Source of the DNA: Escherichia phage Ec_Makalu_002
Reading direction: 5' to 3' (one strand)
Length of the DNA: 64,000 nt
Sequence record: MN709127.1
The stretch's first letter is position 1. Every line of letters starts with the position of its first letter. The notes under the pieces were generated by a model. It worked only from the letters and a program-made list of their open reading frames with translations. It ran no database searches and had not been told where the DNA came from. A program made the translations under genes and the position numbers. Shown in pieces: positions 23,720 to 43,149 of this stretch.

Positions 23720-23748
23720 ATTGTAGGGGAGTTATCCTCCCCTGTCAA
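23720..23748 (-). promoter_or_regulatory. PeSL-like early promoter for operon 23679..21624
   Basis: Minus TTGACA-17-TACAAT; palindrome aggggagttatcctcccct in the spacer. Confidence 0.5.
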
Positions 23749-37097: not shown

Positions 37098-37574
37098 TTA
37101 ATCATGACCGTGGTTGGCAAGATCCGCTCGTGTCTTATCTTTGTGATTTCCTACGTCAAAGACACGATAGCCGTTTTCTCGGAGAACTTTAATCACTTCT
37201 GGGTTATCCTCAAAGACTCCCACCACTTCATCTTTATCAAATGATTTAATTACCTCTAATTTGATGTGATAGTCTTTACGGGAATCGGTACGGCCTCTCA
37301 TAAAGATTTTATCAAAACACACCCCGTTAGAAATTAACCAATCAATTGTTTCCATGTAAGCATGTGAACTTCGTCCGGTGAGGATGTAAATCAAATGACC
37401 GTTGTCCGAAAGAGCATTGATAACACGAATTACATCGTAAATGGGGGAATCTCCCCCACATGCCTTGTTATATTCGATCCATGACTCGACTTTATCAAGA
37501 TTTTCGGTTGGCATCTTTGCTAGTCGATGCGTTGGATCTGTGATCGTAAAATCTAAATCGACAAAATATATCAT
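37098..37574 (-). CDS. HAD-superfamily phosphatase-like protein
   Basis: N-terminal motif FVDLDFTIT (DxDxT), TGR and a downstream acidic motif. Confidence 0.5.
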   Translation of the reverse strand: MIYFVDLDFTITDPTHRLAKMPTENLDKVESWIEYNKACGGDSPIYDVIRVINALSDNGHLIYILTGRSSHAYMETIDWLISNGVCFDKIFMRGRTDSRKDYHIKLEVIKSFDKDEVVGVFEDNPEVIKVLRENGYRVFDVGNHKDKTRADLANHGHD

Positions 37575-38731
37575 AGATATTTCCCGAATCGGTTGTAGTC
37601 GTCGTCTGTTAAATCGGTATTAACCTGAGATACCAGATACATAATCTCTACTTCTTGCGCCGCGTTTTGAACTTCGTCAGAGTTTAACCACTTACGCATC
37701 CACGGTAAAGGATGACGACGAACACTAAACGGGCTTTTCAGTCCGGCAGCACGCATACGGGAATCTGCCAGGTATTCTACATAGGTTTTCAGAATTTCCG
37801 GTGACAGGTTAGGAATTGCCCCCATTGCGAATAAGTGATCTACCCATTCTTTTTCTTGCTCGACAACATCCAGAAAGATTTTCGTTGCTTCGTCTTCAAG
37901 TTCTTCCGCAATCTGTTTCCACTCATCACCATCAGCCCCCGTTTGCCATTGACGAATAATGTATTGTGTTCCTTTTAAGTGAAGTTGTTCATCACGCGCA
38001 ATAAATTTCATGATCTTCGCGTTACCTTCCAGTAAACCACGTTCGGCAAAGCTGAAAGTACATGCAAAGGACACATAAAAACGGATTGCTTCCAAAGCAT
38101 TAACGCAGTGTGCACACAGATAAATCGACGCCATCAGATCTCGTTTTGTATCTTCAAAAACTCTTCTTGCATCATCTAATGCTGTCTGGTCGTCTCGTTC
38201 TTCCCAATAGCGGAGATCTTCTTTTGCGTTCTCATACTTACGAATCCAATAAAGAACATCATCATAATATTGCCCGATAGATTCCGCTCGCTTCATGATC
38301 GCAGGGTTATCGATGATCTGGTCAAACTCACTAGCCGGATCAATGAAACAGTTACGCATGATGTGAGTATAACTGCGGCTATGAATTGTCTCGCTGAATG
38401 TCCAGGTTTGTAACCATGTATCGAGAGTTGGATCAGATACAATTGGACCAAAGGCTGCGGACGGTGCGCGACCTTGAATAGAATCAAGTAATGTCTGATA
38501 CTTCAAGTTTTCTGTAAAGAAACGTTTTTCAACATCGCCCATATTCAGATATTGAATGCGGTCGGTTGCAAGTGAAATCTCTTCTGGACGCCAGAAAAAT
38601 GACAGAGATTTTTCAATTAATTCTTCAAATACTTGATGACGCTGAATGTCATAGCGAGCAATCCCTAAATCACTACCCAGAAACATTGGTTCGTTCATAA
38701 TATCAACATGTTCGCGGTTAAATACGCTCAT
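37571..38731 (-). CDS. nrdB: ribonucleotide reductase small subunit
   Basis: 386 aa; diiron/tyrosyl motifs typical of class Ia R2; T4 synteny. Confidence 0.92.
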   Translation of the reverse strand: MSVFNREHVDIMNEPMFLGSDLGIARYDIQRHQVFEELIEKSLSFFWRPEEISLATDRIQYLNMGDVEKRFFTENLKYQTLLDSIQGRAPSAAFGPIVSDPTLDTWLQTWTFSETIHSRSYTHIMRNCFIDPASEFDQIIDNPAIMKRAESIGQYYDDVLYWIRKYENAKEDLRYWEERDDQTALDDARRVFEDTKRDLMASIYLCAHCVNALEAIRFYVSFACTFSFAERGLLEGNAKIMKFIARDEQLHLKGTQYIIRQWQTGADGDEWKQIAEELEDEATKIFLDVVEQEKEWVDHLFAMGAIPNLSPEILKTYVEYLADSRMRAAGLKSPFSVRRHPLPWMRKWLNSDEVQNAAQEVEIMYLVSQVNTDLTDDDYNRFGKYL

Positions 38732-38746
38732 TAATTCACCTCACTA

Positions 38747-38914
38747 TCACTTTTTAATACAAAAGAACTTAGTATTTCTGTTTATGTCTCTATCCTGTTG
38801 CAATTCCTGCATGGCTTCAAAACAACTTTGATGTGATGAAAACTCTACGCTGGTAACAGTTCCTTTATTATATACCCCGACACTAACGGACAGCAATAAC
38901 CATAATGTAGCCAT
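38747..38914 (-). CDS. small hydrophobic-N-terminus protein (55 aa), tandem paralog 2
   Basis: MATLWLLLSVSVGVYNKGTVTSVEFSSHQSCFEAMQELQQDRDINRNTKFFCIKK. Confidence 0.45.
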   Translation of the reverse strand: MATLWLLLSVSVGVYNKGTVTSVEFSSHQSCFEAMQELQQDRDINRNTKFFCIKK

Positions 38915-39087
38915 TAGTTCACCTTCTGCTTTTCAATGCAATACAGATTCATAAAGCGTTTATTGTCTTCGCGGATAATCTCGCGAGCTTTAACGCAATC
39001 CTGCTTTGTTGCAAACTCAATGCTTGACATATTTCCGTAATTATACATTGAATTGCTTATTGCAATCAATAACCATACAGTAGCCAT
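38914..39087 (-). CDS. small hydrophobic-N-terminus protein (57 aa), tandem paralog 1
   Basis: MATVWLLIAISNSMYNYGNMSSIEFATKQDCVKAREIIREDNKRFMNLYCIEKQKVN; TAATG overlap with the next ORF. Confidence 0.45.
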   Translation of the reverse strand: MATVWLLIAISNSMYNYGNMSSIEFATKQDCVKAREIIREDNKRFMNLYCIEKQKVN

Positions 39088-39254
39088 TATCCGACAACCT
39101 CAAAACATTTATCATCAGGAAGAATAGCCCATTCTACGCCGTATTCATCCTTAACGTAGTAGCAAGTCCCATCATGTCGAGCATCATATTCATCACCGAC
39201 AACAAAGCTATCAGCTAGCTCAAAATCTACAGCAACACATTTTAATTTTGCCAT
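39087..39254 (-). CDS. hypothetical 55-aa protein
   Basis: ATG 39254 with GAGGA RBS; longer track ORF would run into the promoter. Confidence 0.45.
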   Translation of the reverse strand: MAKLKCVAVDFELADSFVVGDEYDARHDGTCYYVKDEYGVEWAILPDDKCFEVVG

Positions 39255-39285: not shown

Positions 39286-39314
39286 ATTATAGCGGGGATT
39301 TCTCCCCGCGTCAA
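39286..39314 (-). promoter_or_regulatory. PeSL-like early promoter cassette
   Basis: Minus TTGACG-17-TATAAT; palindrome gcggggatttctccccgc. Confidence 0.5.
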
Positions 39315-39322
39315 CACTTATT

Positions 39323-41566
39323 TTACAGTTTGCAAGATGAACATTCGCTAGCGTCTTCCGTACCATCAGCACCATCACGCACGTTAGCGTAATACAGTGT
39401 CTTGAGGCCGTAATATTGAGCAAACAGCATATCATCTAACACATCAGCAATATCGACTTTACCAGTCTTATAAGTGCTTGGATCGTAGGATGTATTGGAA
39501 CTAATCGCCTGATCTACAAACTTCTGCATGATCGCTGCCAGTGTCAGATAAGGTTTGTTACCTTTCTTGATCAGTGTCCAAAGCAGGTCAATAACATCAG
39601 CATTATTCTCTACGTTCGGAATAACCTGATTAAATTGTCCTTCCTTTGATCCTTTAACCGATACAATCCCGCGAGGCGGTTCTATTCCATTGGTGCTATT
39701 AGATACCTGAGAAGACGACTCACAAGGCATCAGCGCCGATAGTGTACTGTTACGAATGCCATATTTTTTCAGGTCTTCGCGCAGTTCTTCCCAATCCATC
39801 TCATACACCGGGTCAACCAGTTCATCTACTGTCTTTTTGTACCAGTCAATAGGAAGTTCACCGCGACCATAACGTGTTTCGTGCATCAGTTCGCAAGCGC
39901 CCTTCTCTTTTGCTAGCTGCACACTAGCTTTAATCAGAGCATATTGCAAGCGTTCAAACGTTTTATGCGTAAACTCGTTAGCGTCTTCATATGTGAAGAA
40001 ATTATCCGCCAGATATGATGCAAAGTTAGTCACACCAACACCCAGAGAGCGACGTTTCTTAGCTGTCAGTGCTTGTTTTACAGGATAATCCTGATAATCT
40101 AACAGGTTATCAAGTGCACGCACCATAACCATAGCGATCCGCTCTACTTCTTCCATGTTTTCGATATCGAAATTACCTAAAACATATGCTGCCAAAGTGC
40201 ATAGGCTGATCTCTGAATCATCACGACCCATCGGTTTTGTCGGCAGAGCGATTTCACAACACAGGTTAGATTGTTTAATCGGTGCTACATTACGAATAAA
40301 CGCCCCGTGATTGTTCATGTTGTCTGTGAACGCTGGATAGATTCGACCAGTGTTAAAACGTTCAATTGCCACCGCTAAAAACAGGTCTTCGGCTTTAACA
40401 CGAGTTTTACGCACACTCGGATCTTTTTCCAGTTTTTCGTAAAGCTGGCGGAAACCTTCCTCATCTCGGAAGTACAGATCCCACAACAAGCCACCCGCAA
40501 CATCTGGACTAAACAGAGTAATGTAATCGCGTTTAAGGAATCGCTCTACCATCAGGTTATTAATCTGTACGCCGTAGTCAAGATGACGAATGCGGTTATC
40601 TTCTACCCCTTTGTTGTTCTTCAACACAATAAGACTTTCAAACTCTAAATGCCACATTGGGTAATAGAGAGTCGCCGCCCCGCCACGAATACCGCCTTGT
40701 GAGCATGACTTAACAGCAGTCTGAAAATGTTTCCAGAATGGGATAACGCCAGTATGACGAACTTCACCATACCCGATCTTAGATCCTTCCGCTCGAATCA
40801 TACCAGCATTGATACCGATACCAGCACGCTTACTAATATACTTGATGATTGCATTTGCTGTTTCGTTGATGCCCTGCAATGAGTCATCACTTTCAATCAC
40901 CACACACGAACTAAATTGTCGTGTTGGAGTACGCACACCAGCCATGATCGGAGTAGGCAGAGAAATTTGCTTATTCGCAACAGCATTATAAAAATCAATC
41001 ACATGTTCAAGTCGATTTTCTGTCTCTTCTTGATGTAAGCACATACCGATCAGCATATAAGCAAATTGCGGTGTTTCAATGATTTTCTTAGTGCTGCGAT
41101 CCTGAACAAGATATTTCTCTTTTAACTGCATTGCACCAGCATAGGTCATTTTAAAATCAAGTTTATGATCGATGAATTTCTCCAGATATTCCACTTCTTC
41201 ACGGGAATACTTTTGCAGAATTTCGCGATCATATTTTCCGGTTGCAATATTACGCTCAATATGGCTATAAAAATCAATCGGTTGGAATTGACCGTATACT
41301 GATTTACGAAGCGCGAACATTGCAAGGTTACTTGCTACATATTGATAATCAGGTGTTTCTACAGTAATGTTATCTGCGGCGACCTTAATCAATACTTTCT
41401 GGATATCGTTAGTAGACATACCTTCTGTCAGAAGTGGTTCAACCATATCAAACAATTCATATGGATCAACGTTATGACCTTCGGCTGCCGCTTCCAGAAT
41501 TTTCATTACTTTTTCTTTTTCAAACGGAACAGTCAGACCGGAAGACTTAACAACATTTTTAATCAT
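39323..41566 (-). CDS. nrdA: ribonucleotide reductase large subunit
   Basis: 747 aa; ATP-cone N-terminus, catalytic NLCCEI-type segment, C-terminal Cys pair. Confidence 0.93.
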   Translation of the reverse strand: MIKNVVKSSGLTVPFEKEKVMKILEAAAEGHNVDPYELFDMVEPLLTEGMSTNDIQKVLIKVAADNITVETPDYQYVASNLAMFALRKSVYGQFQPIDFYSHIERNIATGKYDREILQKYSREEVEYLEKFIDHKLDFKMTYAGAMQLKEKYLVQDRSTKKIIETPQFAYMLIGMCLHQEETENRLEHVIDFYNAVANKQISLPTPIMAGVRTPTRQFSSCVVIESDDSLQGINETANAIIKYISKRAGIGINAGMIRAEGSKIGYGEVRHTGVIPFWKHFQTAVKSCSQGGIRGGAATLYYPMWHLEFESLIVLKNNKGVEDNRIRHLDYGVQINNLMVERFLKRDYITLFSPDVAGGLLWDLYFRDEEGFRQLYEKLEKDPSVRKTRVKAEDLFLAVAIERFNTGRIYPAFTDNMNNHGAFIRNVAPIKQSNLCCEIALPTKPMGRDDSEISLCTLAAYVLGNFDIENMEEVERIAMVMVRALDNLLDYQDYPVKQALTAKKRRSLGVGVTNFASYLADNFFTYEDANEFTHKTFERLQYALIKASVQLAKEKGACELMHETRYGRGELPIDWYKKTVDELVDPVYEMDWEELREDLKKYGIRNSTLSALMPCESSSQVSNSTNGIEPPRGIVSVKGSKEGQFNQVIPNVENNADVIDLLWTLIKKGNKPYLTLAAIMQKFVDQAISSNTSYDPSTYKTGKVDIADVLDDMLFAQYYGLKTLYYANVRDGADGTEDASECSSCKL

Positions 41567-41577
41567 ATTACCTCACT

Positions 41578-41880
41578 TCATATATCAAGCGTATTTTCTG
41601 GAGTATCGCCGAAAACTCTATTAACGAGATCCGCCAATACTTCACCGTGGCATTTCTTAGGGTAGCAAGTACAACCTAAGCGCATATGTCTTAATACTTC
41701 TAAATGCGCCCGTGTTATCTCACCATTTCGAATCTTATTATACAACCACTCTTTGTATAATGCAATAGCTTTCTCTCGTCCGTATTCTTTGGCGGTGTAT
41801 GGATTTCCCCACATAGTACCACGCTGAATATTAACATCAAAATCGCTATTGTATTTGTTTACAACGCGGCATATTTTCAT
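41578..41880 (-). CDS. DUF4326-like protein
   Basis: WGNPY ... LGCTCYPKKCHGEVL pattern; C-terminus ...ENTLDI. Confidence 0.45.
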   Translation of the reverse strand: MKICRVVNKYNSDFDVNIQRGTMWGNPYTAKEYGREKAIALYKEWLYNKIRNGEITRAHLEVLRHMRLGCTCYPKKCHGEVLADLVNRVFGDTPENTLDI

Positions 41881-41916: not shown

Positions 41917-43149
41917 TTATACTGCCATTTGAGCGGTGATTGCCGGATGGCTTTGATAGTTGTGAATTTTAAAGTCTTTCGGAGTTTTTGTCAATACCTC
42001 ATCTAAAGATTTAAATTCCGGCAACTCAATTGTTGGTTTATCAAACGGAACACGGCTTAACTGTTCCATCACTTGGTCAAAGTGATTTTTGTAAATGTGA
42101 GTATCTCCGCCGGAGAAAATCAGTTCTCCTACTTCGAGATCACACATTTTCGCTATGATGTGAGTTAACAGCGCATAGCTGGCGACGTTAAAGGGCAAGC
42201 CCAAAAAGCTGTCTACGCTTCGCTGAAACCACATACAAGACAGTTTACCCTCATTGACATAGAATTGCACGAACGGATGACATACACCTAATACAGCATT
42301 ATGTGTTCCTTGTACGTTCCATGAGTCAATAATGATCCGGCGATCCGTTGGATTGTTTTTAATTTGTTCAATCACGTTTTGTAACTGGTCTTCCCAAATC
42401 TTCGGGCGATAGACATATTCTTCATCGTCTTTAGTGCTCGATGTGTCTATGTCCATACTAGCAAAGATCGTGGTATCTGGCGCTAAAATATCCCCGCCTA
42501 GATAATCACTATCAAGCAGATAACCGAAATAACCATCATCTACCCATTCCTGGAATCCCCACAAGCAATATGCATCATTAACAAAATTAGATTGAGTCTT
42601 CCAGTGGTCTGCTACTAAGAATTGATTATATTCAGAATCAAACTCTTCATAACGCATACCACGCCAGATAGCACATAAACGGTCTTCTGTGTCGTTGGTT
42701 GGCGTAAAGTCTTCTACCCACGGGTGTTTAAATGTATGTGTATATTTGCTCTTAACGCGCTTAATTTTGATTTCACCGTGTGGATGAATCGGTTTGCGTC
42801 GCCACGCCATACCATACATATTGCCGACATTATAACCATTGAATCGCAAGGGATTCTTTTCTTTCATATCAAGACAGTTGCCGCGCCAAATATCAAATGC
42901 TTCCTCGTCAAACTTTCCGCGTGTAATTTCCTGTAAGCGACGGCGGTCAAGTGATCCCTCCATAAACCATAGCAATTCGCCAATTACAGAGGCTGTAGCC
43001 ATCTTTTTAGTGGTCAGTAATGGGAAACCCTTGCTTAAATCAATTCGCATCTCTGTGCCGAATTTAGAGAGCGTACCTACCCCCGTTCGGTCTTCACGAG
43101 GCCAGCCATTATCAAGAACATCACGCAATAGTTTCAAATATTCTTTCAT
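41917..43149 (-). CDS. td: thymidylate synthase with a large internal insertion
   Basis: ThyA motifs (ELLWF, DRRIIIDSWN, GVCHPFVQFY, SVDSFLGLPFNVASYALL) plus about 110 extra residues after the WRR segment. Confidence 0.8.
   Translation of the reverse strand: MKEYLKLLRDVLDNGWPREDRTGVGTLSKFGTEMRIDLSKGFPLLTTKKMATASVIGELLWFMEGSLDRRRLQEITRGKFDEEAFDIWRGNCLDMKEKNPLRFNGYNVGNMYGMAWRRKPIHPHGEIKIKRVKSKYTHTFKHPWVEDFTPTNDTEDRLCAIWRGMRYEEFDSEYNQFLVADHWKTQSNFVNDAYCLWGFQEWVDDGYFGYLLDSDYLGGDILAPDTTIFASMDIDTSSTKDDEEYVYRPKIWEDQLQNVIEQIKNNPTDRRIIIDSWNVQGTHNAVLGVCHPFVQFYVNEGKLSCMWFQRSVDSFLGLPFNVASYALLTHIIAKMCDLEVGELIFSGGDTHIYKNHFDQVMEQLSRVPFDKPTIELPEFKSLDEVLTKTPKDFKIHNYQSHPAITAQMAV

What the first reader, a model, noticed from the sequence alone, without database searches (positions are those of the whole stretch)
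38747..39254. Tandem duplicated small genes between nrdB and nrdA
Two adjacent ORFs (38914..39087 and 38747..38914) encode clearly homologous 55-57-aa proteins (MATVWLLIAIS... and MATLWLLLSVS...) with a hydrophobic N-terminus and two conserved Cys. They overlap by TAATG. A third small ORF and a promoter cassette sit between nrdA and this pair. They may be small membrane or secreted peptides such as superinfection-exclusion factors.
Basis: seen in the sequence. Interest (0 to 1): 0.4.

Follow-up and report, generated by a model that had tools for sequence, protein, structure and literature searches.

The report
Two paralogous phage mini-protein genes
Two adjacent genes for related 55-57-residue proteins do sit between the ribonucleotide reductase genes of this RB49-like coliphage, but they are already-annotated members of a very widespread, uncharacterised phage mini-protein family that looks like a small soluble domain, not a membrane or secreted peptide.

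Summary
On the minus strand lie ORF233-like (39087..39254), copy A (38914..39087) and copy B (38747..38914). They are joined by TAATG overlaps and sit behind a sigma-70 promoter with a G/C hairpin in its spacer. A and B are homologous (38% identity, E 7e-16).

The window is a Krischvirus, 99.6% identical to Ec_Makalu_001. The genes correspond to RB49 ORF231-233 and are annotated "hypothetical" in more than 50 genomes. Both copies are under purifying selection (dN/dS 0.07 and 0.30).

Both belong to phrog_5579, which has no Pfam family. It has at least 827 cluster representatives across T4-, T7-, T1-, Jersey-like, lambdoid, Vibrio and jumbo Pseudomonas phages. AlphaFold2 gives a confident beta-beta-alpha-beta domain (pLDDT 92) whose N-terminal hydrophobic stretch is a core strand. 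That stretch is only about 7-11 residues long and has no charged n-region, so the membrane, secreted or superinfection-exclusion reading is not supported.

The genes are dispensable. FL15 lacks both and carries a homing endonuclease instead. FL20 and G37-3 carry one A/B hybrid. A relative has a single copy behind the same promoter.

The promoter cassette is a published PeSL element. The function is unknown; the best guess is an early cytoplasmic host-binding accessory protein. The finding is ordinary and already catalogued.

The parts
39286..39314 (-). PeSL-type early promoter: -35 TTGACG, 17-nt spacer, -10 TATAAT. A 7-bp G/C stem-loop (39292..39309, GCGGGGA GAAA TCCCCGC) lies inside the spacer, 9 nt after the nrdA stop.
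   Evidence: The promoter scan gives 11 of 12 matches. The fold is -21.2 kcal/mol, z = -3.5. The same architecture occurs at four other places in the window. It matches the published description of PeSLs in RB49/phi1 (PMC2839356). The identical 29-mer precedes the single-copy homolog in a metagenomic relative. It is annotated as a promoter in GEC-3S and as a 'terminator' in Makalu_001.
39087..39254 (-). ORF233-like gene (55 aa from the ATG, preceded by a GAGGA Shine-Dalgarno sequence). It is restricted to Krischvirus (phrog_16302) and its function is unknown.
   Evidence: phrog_16302, E 1.2e-40. It occurs only in 58 Krischvirus records. dN/dS is 0.16, but it has a stop codon in ELT3 and a frameshift in FL20.
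38914..39087 (-). Copy A (57 aa, equivalent to RB49p232 / phi1 ORF232), a phrog_5579 mini-protein. Its start overlaps the ORF233 stop (TAATG).
   Evidence: It is 96-100% identical in 52 records. dN/dS is 0.066. The AF2 model is beta(5-11)-beta(20-25)-alpha(28-41)-beta(46-52), pLDDT 81.
38747..38914 (-). Copy B (55 aa, equivalent to RB49p231 / phi1 ORF231), a phrog_5579 mini-protein. Its start overlaps the copy A stop (TAATG). It lies 15 nt upstream of nrdB.
   Evidence: It is 84-100% identical in 54 records. dN/dS is 0.30. The AF2 model has pLDDT 91.9 and the same topology.
37571..38731 (-). nrdB (class Ia RNR small subunit). It is the downstream gene of the same transcription unit and serves as context.
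39323..41566 (-). nrdA (class Ia RNR large subunit), the upstream context gene.

Best explanation
The two ORFs are real, early-expressed accessory genes. They encode two long-diverged paralogs of a very widespread phage mini-protein family (phrog_5579; no Pfam family).

Each protein is a single, probably cytoplasmic, beta-beta-alpha-beta domain of about 55 residues. The hydrophobic N-terminus is the central beta strand, not a signal peptide or membrane anchor. A conserved Glu-Phe at the end of beta-2 and two essentially invariant Cys (helix start and beta-3) form the signature.

The genes are transcribed by host sigma-70 RNA polymerase from the PeSL cassette behind nrdA. They are translationally coupled to each other through the TAATG overlaps, and nrdB follows 15 nt downstream.

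Inferred, not shown: they act as stoichiometric binders or modulators of a host (or phage) protein early in infection, that is, in a host-takeover or counter-defence role. Binding probably uses the all-hydrophobic beta-1 and sheet face, which one helix cannot cover, for dimerisation or target binding. On this reading the two paralogs carry different specificities.

The position between nrdA and nrdB reflects a permissive insertion slot, not a link to ribonucleotide reduction.
For: Shown:
- Homology of A and B, and full-length matches to phrog_5579.
- Purifying selection on both copies: dN/dS 0.066 and 0.298, with intact frames in every phage examined that carries them.
- A profile search found 827 cluster representatives at E <= 1e-3, nearly all stand-alone proteins of 45-75 aa.
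- In unfiltered sets, L7, C31 and C50 are invariant and E24, F25 and A34 nearly so. 170 of 178 members have exactly two Cys.
- Two AF2 runs agree on the topology, with pLDDT 81.4 and 91.9. BFVD models of relatives superpose at TM 0.6-0.88.
- Positions 5-10 are at least 90% hydrophobic on both faces of the strand.
- The PeSL promoter sits upstream (PMC2839356).
- The family occurs among strings of small early or accessory ORFs in unrelated phages: Koutsourovirus between helicase and DNA polymerase, Drexlerviridae, Guernseyvirinae, a lambdoid ea region, a Vibrio phage and jumbo Pseudomonas phages.
- The genes are dispensable and the locus is plastic. FL15 lacks both copies, FL20 and G37-3 have one hybrid copy, Winklervirus has an unrelated ORF or none, and homing endonucleases use the same slot. 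T4 mobE occupies the nrdA-nrdB slot (PMC2790892).
Against: - There is no experimental or annotated function anywhere. All PHROG, Pfam, NCBIfam and PDB searches were empty or labelled 'unknown'.
- An invariant Cys pair is unusual for a purely cytoplasmic binder. It would fit a disulfide (an exported protein) or a metal site equally well.
- Some databases label distant look-alikes as 'secreted protein'.
- The localisation argument rests on heuristics and AlphaFold only. No dedicated signal-peptide or TM predictor was available.
- The 'binder / counter-defence' step is inferred from gene size, timing and context alone.
Confidence: 0.45

Rival explanations
1. One reading: these are membrane-anchored or secreted small peptides. 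The N-terminus would act as a signal or anchor and the two Cys would form a periplasmic disulfide, for example in superinfection exclusion or envelope modification.
For: - The N-terminus is hydrophobic.
- The strictly conserved Cys pair would be natural for a disulfide.
- 19 of 178 family members reach the Kyte-Doolittle 19-residue threshold of 1.6.
- Automatic 'secreted protein' labels appear on a Rhizobium phage look-alike and on YebW/DUF1482 proteins.
- The Vibrio phage member lies next to TM-helix and lipoprotein genes.
Against: - The hydrophobic run is 7-11 residues. In some members it is followed directly by Asp or Gly-rich polar residues.
- KD19 is 0.61 for A and 1.07 for B.
- There is no basic n-region in 156 of 178 members, no conserved AxA site and no lipobox.
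- AF2 puts the segment in the sheet at pLDDT 83-86 in two independent alignments.
- There is no similarity to T4 Imm/Sp-type or Cor/Llp-type exclusion proteins in any library.
Confidence: 0.15
2. These are accessory factors of the phage ribonucleotide reductase, for example a redox or metal-cofactor helper for NrdB analogous to YfaE or NrdH. This would explain the conserved position between nrdA and nrdB.
For: - A family member sits between nrdA and nrdB in Krischvirus and in a more distant metagenomic relative, immediately upstream of nrdB.
- It is co-transcribed with nrdB.
- Conserved Cys and Glu could bind a metal.
Against: - Most family members are in phages or contexts without any RNR gene nearby.
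- FL15 keeps nrdA and nrdB but lacks both copies.
- Winklervirus and T4 have other content or nothing in the slot.
- There is no CxxC motif and no thioredoxin or ferredoxin match.
Confidence: 0.07
3. This is functionally neutral cargo: small ORFans that persist only because they ride in a PeSL-bounded cassette and a recombination hot spot, with no benefit to the phage.
For: - The locus is highly plastic, the genes are dispensable, and copy number varies through recombination between the copies.
- PeSL cassettes are reported to shuffle ORFans (PMC2839356).
Against: - Purifying selection is strong on copy A (dN/dS 0.066) and clear on copy B (0.30).
- The family signature is conserved across at least 827 clusters in very different phage lineages.
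Confidence: 0.1

Closest known systems
PHROG family phrog_5579 (with related phrog_3766 and phrog_6794); RB49 ORF231/ORF232 and phi1 ORF231/ORF232
   Same: Both window proteins match over full length (E about 1e-23). All 68 diverse relatives tested also match. They are 96-100% (A) and 84-100% (B) identical to annotated hypothetical proteins of RB49-like phages.
   Different: Nothing differs; this is the family. The family itself has no assigned function and no Pfam model.
PeSL (promoter-early stem-loop) cassettes of RB49/phi1 (Arbiol, Comeau et al. 2010, PMC2839356; 2014, PMC4122927)
   Same: It has a consensus sigma-70 -35/-10 pair with a polyG/polyC stem-loop between the boxes. It sits right after the stop codon of the upstream gene and just before the SD and ATG of a small ORF of unknown function.
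   Different: This particular cassette (nrdA/ORF233) is not discussed in the main text of the 2010 paper (its supplementary files were not searched). Promoter and attenuator activity were not tested here. It lies between core genes, not in a large hyperplastic region.
Pfam DUF1482 (PF07358), E. coli YebW
   Same: It has a similar size and layout: a hydrophobic N-terminal strand, a Gly-rich turn, then '..V.V(F/Y)N(T/S)..QC..A' aligning with '..IEF(N/S)S..C..A'. A BFVD 'DUF1482 family protein' model superposes at TM 0.73, rmsd 2.1. hhalign gives a pairwise E of 3.5e-4 to 1e-3.
   Different: The hhalign probability is only 22-37%. No Pfam hit was found for the window proteins, and only 1 of 68 relatives hits at E 0.11. 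DUF1482 has four conserved Cys and a C-terminal F-I-D-G-F-W tail that is absent here. It is chromosomal in Enterobacteriaceae. Its function is also unknown.
Free-standing homing endonuclease slot between nrdA and nrdB (T4 mobE; PMC2790892)
   Same: It is the same intergenic slot between the two RNR subunit genes. Krischvirus relatives carry HNH endonuclease genes there (FL15, G37-3).
   Different: The window's occupants are not endonucleases and show no mobility features of their own.
T4 Dmd antitoxin (PDB 5hy3_B, 5i8j)
   Same: It is about 60 aa, early-expressed, a small three-strand-plus-helix protein with a hydrophobic N-terminal strand. It appears in both Foldseek lists (TM 0.40-0.58).
   Different: The matches are not significant (E > 2). 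The hhalign probability is 0.2%. Krischvirus phages have their own bona fide dmd elsewhere.

Membership tests
phrog_5579 mini-protein family | Full-length profile match | tested here: met
   E 2e-23 (A, residues 2-53 of a 52-position profile) and 6.9e-23 (B). Both are also recovered from the window by a family HMM, and nothing else in the 64 kb is.
phrog_5579 mini-protein family | Signature: hydrophobic W-I-L-I strand, E-F, two Cys, C-V-x-K end | tested here: met
   L7, C31 and C50 are invariant, and E24, F25 and A34 are at least 90% conserved in 68 unfiltered sequences. 170 of 178 members have two Cys. The A9 per-column profile was pre-filtered on E..C..C, so its 100% values for those columns are by construction.
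Tandem (in-situ) gene duplication | Adjacent homologous genes in the same orientation | tested here: met
Tandem (in-situ) gene duplication | The two copies are each other's closest relatives | tested here: not met
   A versus B is 38% identical. A versus P0038 is 52% and versus the Koutsourovirus ORF 47%. B versus P0026 is 49%. The A+B clade appears in 1.5% of NJ bootstraps. The tree is poorly resolved, so an ancient duplication is not excluded. A relative has one copy at the same locus.
Sec-exported or single-pass membrane peptides (e.g. superinfection-exclusion proteins) | Hydrophobic segment long enough for an h-region plus cleavage site, or a TM helix of about 18-20 residues | tested here: not met
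   KD19 maximum is 0.61 (A) and 1.07 (B), below 1.6. The strict hydrophobic run is 7 and 5 residues, and the family median is 7.
Sec-exported or single-pass membrane peptides (e.g. superinfection-exclusion proteins) | Basic n-region, AxA site or lipobox | tested here: not met
   156 of 178 members have no K/R in the first 5 residues. There is no N-terminal Cys and no conserved small-x-small motif in columns 12-19.
Sec-exported or single-pass membrane peptides (e.g. superinfection-exclusion proteins) | Experimental localisation, or a dedicated predictor (SignalP, DeepTMHMM) | not testable with these tools
   No such tool was available. AF2 places the segment as a core strand.
PeSL regulatory cassette | Consensus sigma-70 boxes plus a G/C-rich stem-loop, intergenic, between the stop of one gene and the SD/ATG of a small ORF | tested here: met
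   description in PMC2839356.
PeSL regulatory cassette | Early promoter and attenuator activity; recombination into mini-circles | not testable with these tools
   This requires experiments. It was shown for other PeSLs in PMC2839356.
Pfam DUF1482 / YebW | Match to PF07358 above the gathering score | tested here: not met
   No hit at E <= 1 for A or B. 1 of 68 relatives hits at E 0.11.
Pfam DUF1482 / YebW | Remote homology by profile-profile or fold comparison | tested here: inconclusive
   hhalign probability is 37.5% and 22% over 32-33 columns. BFVD DUF1482 model: TM 0.73, E 0.089.
T4 Dmd antitoxin | Sequence or profile similarity to Dmd | tested here: not met
   hhalign probability 0.2%. 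Foldseek E > 2. Krischvirus encodes a separate dmd.

The most novel reading that the evidence does not exclude
phrog_5579 may be a ubiquitous phage effector mini-domain not yet in Pfam. Its invariant Glu/Cys/Cys cluster would bind a metal or form a redox-active disulfide. The domain would neutralise a conserved host factor or defence early in infection. The A/B pair would then be a specificity-diversified, possibly heterodimeric, version kept by RB49-like phages.
Probability: 0.15. Interest if true: 0.55.

Novelty: already known. Interest (0 to 1): 0.25.

Why it matters
As a genome feature it matters little. The genes have been annotated since the RB49 genome as ORF231/232, they are grouped in a PHROG, and their promoter cassette has been described.

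The useful results are:
- The membrane or superinfection-exclusion idea can be set aside.
- The family is much larger and broader than its annotation suggests: at least 827 clusters at 50% identity across many phage lineages, no Pfam model, a confident new-looking mini-fold and an invariant Cys pair.
- Natural variants with zero, one or two copies exist (FL15; FL20 and G37-3; most others). These offer a ready-made comparison for anyone wanting to assign a function to this piece of phage 'dark matter'.

Tried and rejected
- **Pfam, NCBIfam, PDB sequence search and two PDB Foldseek searches.** There was no informative hit: best PDB E > 0.5, and only generic two-layer alpha/beta folds (PII-like SbtB, PaaB, ERH).
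- **T4 Dmd lead** (similar size and topology in the Foldseek lists). Rejected: the profile probability is 0.2%, and Krischvirus has its own dmd.
- **DUF1482/YebW lead** (recalled from memory, then tested). The E. coli K-12 YebW sequence was fetched and its family aligned. hhalign gave only 22-37%, so the result is inconclusive. No function is known for it either.
- **RNR-accessory idea.** Rejected as a general function, because most family contexts lack RNR genes and FL15 lacks the genes.
- **The search for related loci with the 68-sequence alignment.** It failed because no stretch was conserved enough. Context was taken from the look-up of encoding contigs and annotated phage records instead.
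- **Loose association with polynucleotide kinase/phosphatase genes.** It was seen in PHB17, FritzSarasin and Krischvirus but is absent in the other contexts, so I treat it as unproven.
- **Internal sigma-70-like match inside copy A.** Its TATAAT is the Tyr-Asn codons, which copy B also carries at the same position, so it is probably coincidental.
- **Search of the main text of the 2010 PeSL paper for ORF231-233 or nrd.** Nothing was found.

Full report
**1. What is there**

The following lie on the minus strand in this order:
- nrdA, 39323..41566.
- A 68-nt spacer.
- A 55-aa ORF, 39087..39254 from its ATG.
- Copy A, 38914..39087 (57 aa).
- Copy B, 38747..38914 (55 aa).
- After 15 nt, nrdB, 37571..38731.

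The three small ORFs are chained by TAATG stop/start overlaps, and each has a GAGG-type Shine-Dalgarno sequence.

A and B align over their whole length with 38% identity and 69% positives, E = 7e-16. At the DNA level they share an almost identical first 21 nt.

The spacer holds TTGACG-N17-TATAAT at 39314..39286, with 11 of 12 matches to consensus. A GCGGGGA-GAAA-TCCCCGC hairpin sits between the two boxes.

**2. Where the window comes from**

The region is 99.6% identical to Escherichia phage Ec_Makalu_001 and about 96% identical to RB49, phi1, GEC-3S and others in genus Krischvirus, family Straboviridae.

In those records the three ORFs are annotated hypothetical proteins: RB49p233/232/231 and phi1 ORF233/232/231. 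GEC-3S annotates the promoter.

The promoter-plus-hairpin unit fits the published 'PeSL' (promoter-early stem-loop) class of RB49 and phi1. That class has consensus sigma-70 boxes and a polyG/polyC stem-loop, most often between -35 and -10, placed between the stop of one gene and the SD/ATG of a small ORF (PMC2839356).

Four more cassettes of the same build occur in this window, at 23748, 23992, 27276 and 28408, all on the minus strand.

**3. Are the genes real?**

Copy A occurs at 96-100% identity in 52 phage records. Copy B occurs at 84-100% in 54. ORF233 occurs in 58, all Krischvirus.

Nei-Gojobori estimates over 9-11 phages give:
- dN/dS 0.066 for A.
- dN/dS 0.298 for B.
- dN/dS 0.16 for ORF233.

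A and B are intact wherever they are present. ORF233 has a stop codon in ELT3 and a frameshift in FL20. Both copies are therefore protein-coding genes under selection, with B evolving about four to five times faster at the protein level than A.

**4. The family**

Both proteins match phrog_5579 ('unknown function') over full length. They match nothing in Pfam or NCBIfam.

Clear homologs exist well outside T4-like phages:
- An unannotated ORF between the helicase and the DNA polymerase of the Koutsourovirus SDFMU_EhYP (47% identity to A).
- Drexlerviridae: FritzSarasin bas04_0068, and PHB17 gp10 next to pnk.
- The Guernseyvirinae phage SenTO17.
- An unannotated ORF in the ea region of Klebsiella phage 2b LV-2017.
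- A Vibrio phage.
- An 85-aa version in jumbo Pseudomonas phages.

A profile of 16 members, scored against 1.84 billion cluster representatives, found 827 proteins at E <= 1e-3. Nearly all are stand-alone proteins of 45-75 aa. All 68 sampled members hit phrog_5579.

The signature in unfiltered sets is a 6-7-residue all-hydrophobic stretch (W-I-L-I-I..), a variable Gly/Asn/Ser-rich turn, then (V/I)-E-F-x-S-x-x-x-C-x-x-A, and a C-terminal C-V-x-K. L7 and both Cys are invariant, and E24, F25 and A34 are at least 90% conserved. 170 of 178 members have exactly two Cys.

Only these two members occur in the 64-kb window.

**5. Structure and localisation**

AlphaFold2 gives the same topology for both copies:
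- Copy A (16-sequence alignment): strand 5-11, strand 20-25, helix 28-41, strand 46-52; pLDDT 81.
- Copy B (133 sequences): the same, with pLDDT 91.9 and pTM 0.71.

The N-terminal hydrophobic stretch is a strand of the sheet, with pLDDT 83-86.

BFVD holds many independently predicted models of uncharacterised phage proteins of about 55 aa that superpose at TM 0.6-0.88. The PDB holds nothing significant.

The hydropathy numbers argue against a membrane or Sec-exported peptide:
- Kyte-Doolittle 19-residue maxima are 0.61 (A) and 1.07 (B), against the usual 1.6 threshold.
- The family median is 1.20.
- 156 of 178 members have no Lys/Arg in the first five residues.
- There is no lipobox.

Positions 5-10 are at least 90% hydrophobic on both faces of the strand. 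From this I infer that the sheet face not covered by the single helix is buried by dimerisation or by a partner.

Caveat: the strictly conserved Cys pair would also suit a disulfide in an exported protein, and I had no dedicated signal-peptide predictor and no access to model coordinates.

**6. The locus is a plastic slot and the genes are dispensable**

- FL20 and G37-3 carry a single copy. Its first codons are A-type (ACT GTA) and the rest is B-type. The crossover lies in the shared TATGGTTATTG and removes exactly one 174-nt unit.
- FL15 keeps ORF233 but has an HNH/NUMOD3 homing endonuclease gene in place of both copies.
- G37-3 has an HNH_3/AP2 endonuclease gene between its single copy and nrdB.
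- In Winklervirus the slot holds an unrelated 65-aa ORF (Kc304) or nothing (X20).
- In T4 the slot holds mobE (PMC2790892).
- A metagenomic Krischvirus-like relative (NrdA 85% and NrdB 82.5% identical) has the identical 29-nt PeSL followed directly by one family member, P0026, and then nrdB. P0026 is 45% identical to A and 49% to B.

**7. Duplication or not**

A and B are not closer to each other (38%) than to members from unrelated phages:
- A versus P0038: 52%.
- A versus Koutsourovirus: 47-49%.
- B versus P0026: 49%.

A neighbour-joining tree groups B with P0026 and A with P0038. An A+B clade has 1.5% bootstrap support, and all deep nodes are weak.

The simplest reading is that B is the resident orthologue of the slot. 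A is then either a very old duplicate or a separately acquired family member. 'Tandem paralogs' is safe; 'tandem duplication' is not shown.

**8. Function**

Nothing in any library or in the searchable literature assigns a function.

Contexts across phages are strings of small early or accessory ORFs, with no constant neighbour. RNR linkage is confined to the Krischvirus lineage, and FL15 does without the genes, so an RNR-helper role is unlikely.

The Dmd resemblance is not significant, and Krischvirus has its own dmd.

A distant link to DUF1482/YebW is possible but inconclusive: hhalign gives 22-37%, and the BFVD DUF1482 model superposes at TM 0.73. It would not supply a function anyway.

My best-supported explanation is that these are early, PeSL-driven, translationally coupled accessory genes for two diverged soluble mini-domains that bind a host or phage partner. 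The gene reality, family membership, fold and dispensability are shown. The cytoplasmic location is likely but rests on prediction. The binder or counter-defence role is inference.

**9. Verdict**

The feature is already annotated and catalogued, so its novelty is low. The residual interest lies in the size and breadth of an uncharacterised mini-protein family with an invariant Cys pair, and in the natural 0-, 1- and 2-copy variants that could be used to find its function.

Noticed in passing
window 41578..41880 (-): A 100-aa DUF4326 ORF (Pfam E 6.5e-23) sits between td and nrdA. It is present in Ec_Makalu_001 and in a metagenomic relative (L028) but absent from RB49, where td follows nrdA directly. 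This is another indel of an accessory gene at this locus.
   Followed up: partly
window 41917..43149 (-): The thymidylate synthase is 410 aa, yet it spans the whole 266-position Pfam Thymidylat_synt profile. It therefore carries an internal insertion of roughly 140 residues (also present in RB49). The nature of the insertion was not examined.
   Followed up: no
window 23748, 23992, 27276, 28408 (all - strand; -35 start coordinates): Four further PeSL-like cassettes: TTGAC(A/G)-spacer-TA(T/C)AAT with 7-8-bp GGGG/CCCC stem-loops inside the spacer. They have the same architecture as the one at 39314.
   Followed up: partly
L019 (phage FL15) 1239..1913; L018 (phage G37-3) 1235..1774; L028 1760..2473: Homing endonuclease genes populate the nrdA-nrdB region in relatives. 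An HNH/NUMOD3 gene replaces both mini-protein genes in FL15. An HNH_3/AP2 gene lies in front of nrdB in G37-3. An I-HmuI-like gene splits nrdA in a metagenomic relative.
   Followed up: partly
L003 2644..2814 (Enterobacter phage SDFMU_EhYP); L009 1498..1665 (Klebsiella phage 2b LV-2017): Clear members of the same mini-protein family are present but unannotated in these GenBank records (family HMM E 2e-17 and 3e-17).
   Followed up: yes
window 39040..39069 (-), inside copy A: A sigma-70-like match, TTGATT-18-TATAAT (10 of 12), lies inside copy A. The TATAAT is the Tyr15-Asn16 codons, which copy B also carries at the same position. It could act as an internal promoter for copy B and nrdB, or it could be coincidental.
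   Followed up: no
L004 2773..3001 (phage FL20); L023 (phage ELT3) 1591..1758: The ORF233 homolog is frameshifted in FL20 and has an in-frame stop in ELT3. This suggests it is less constrained than the two mini-protein genes, or that there are sequencing errors.
   Followed up: partly
L006 3306..3500 (Salmonella phage vB_SenTO17 gp25): A second, weak family member (HMM E 3.8e-4) lies two genes downstream of the clear member gp27. More than one copy per genome may therefore occur outside Krischvirus.
   Followed up: no
L008 965..1656 (PHB17), L005 3001..4215 (FritzSarasin), window 37098..37574: Family members lie next to or near polynucleotide kinase/phosphatase genes in two Drexlerviridae. In Krischvirus the HAD_PNKP phosphatase lies just after nrdB. 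This association is absent from the other contexts examined and was not tested statistically.
   Followed up: no
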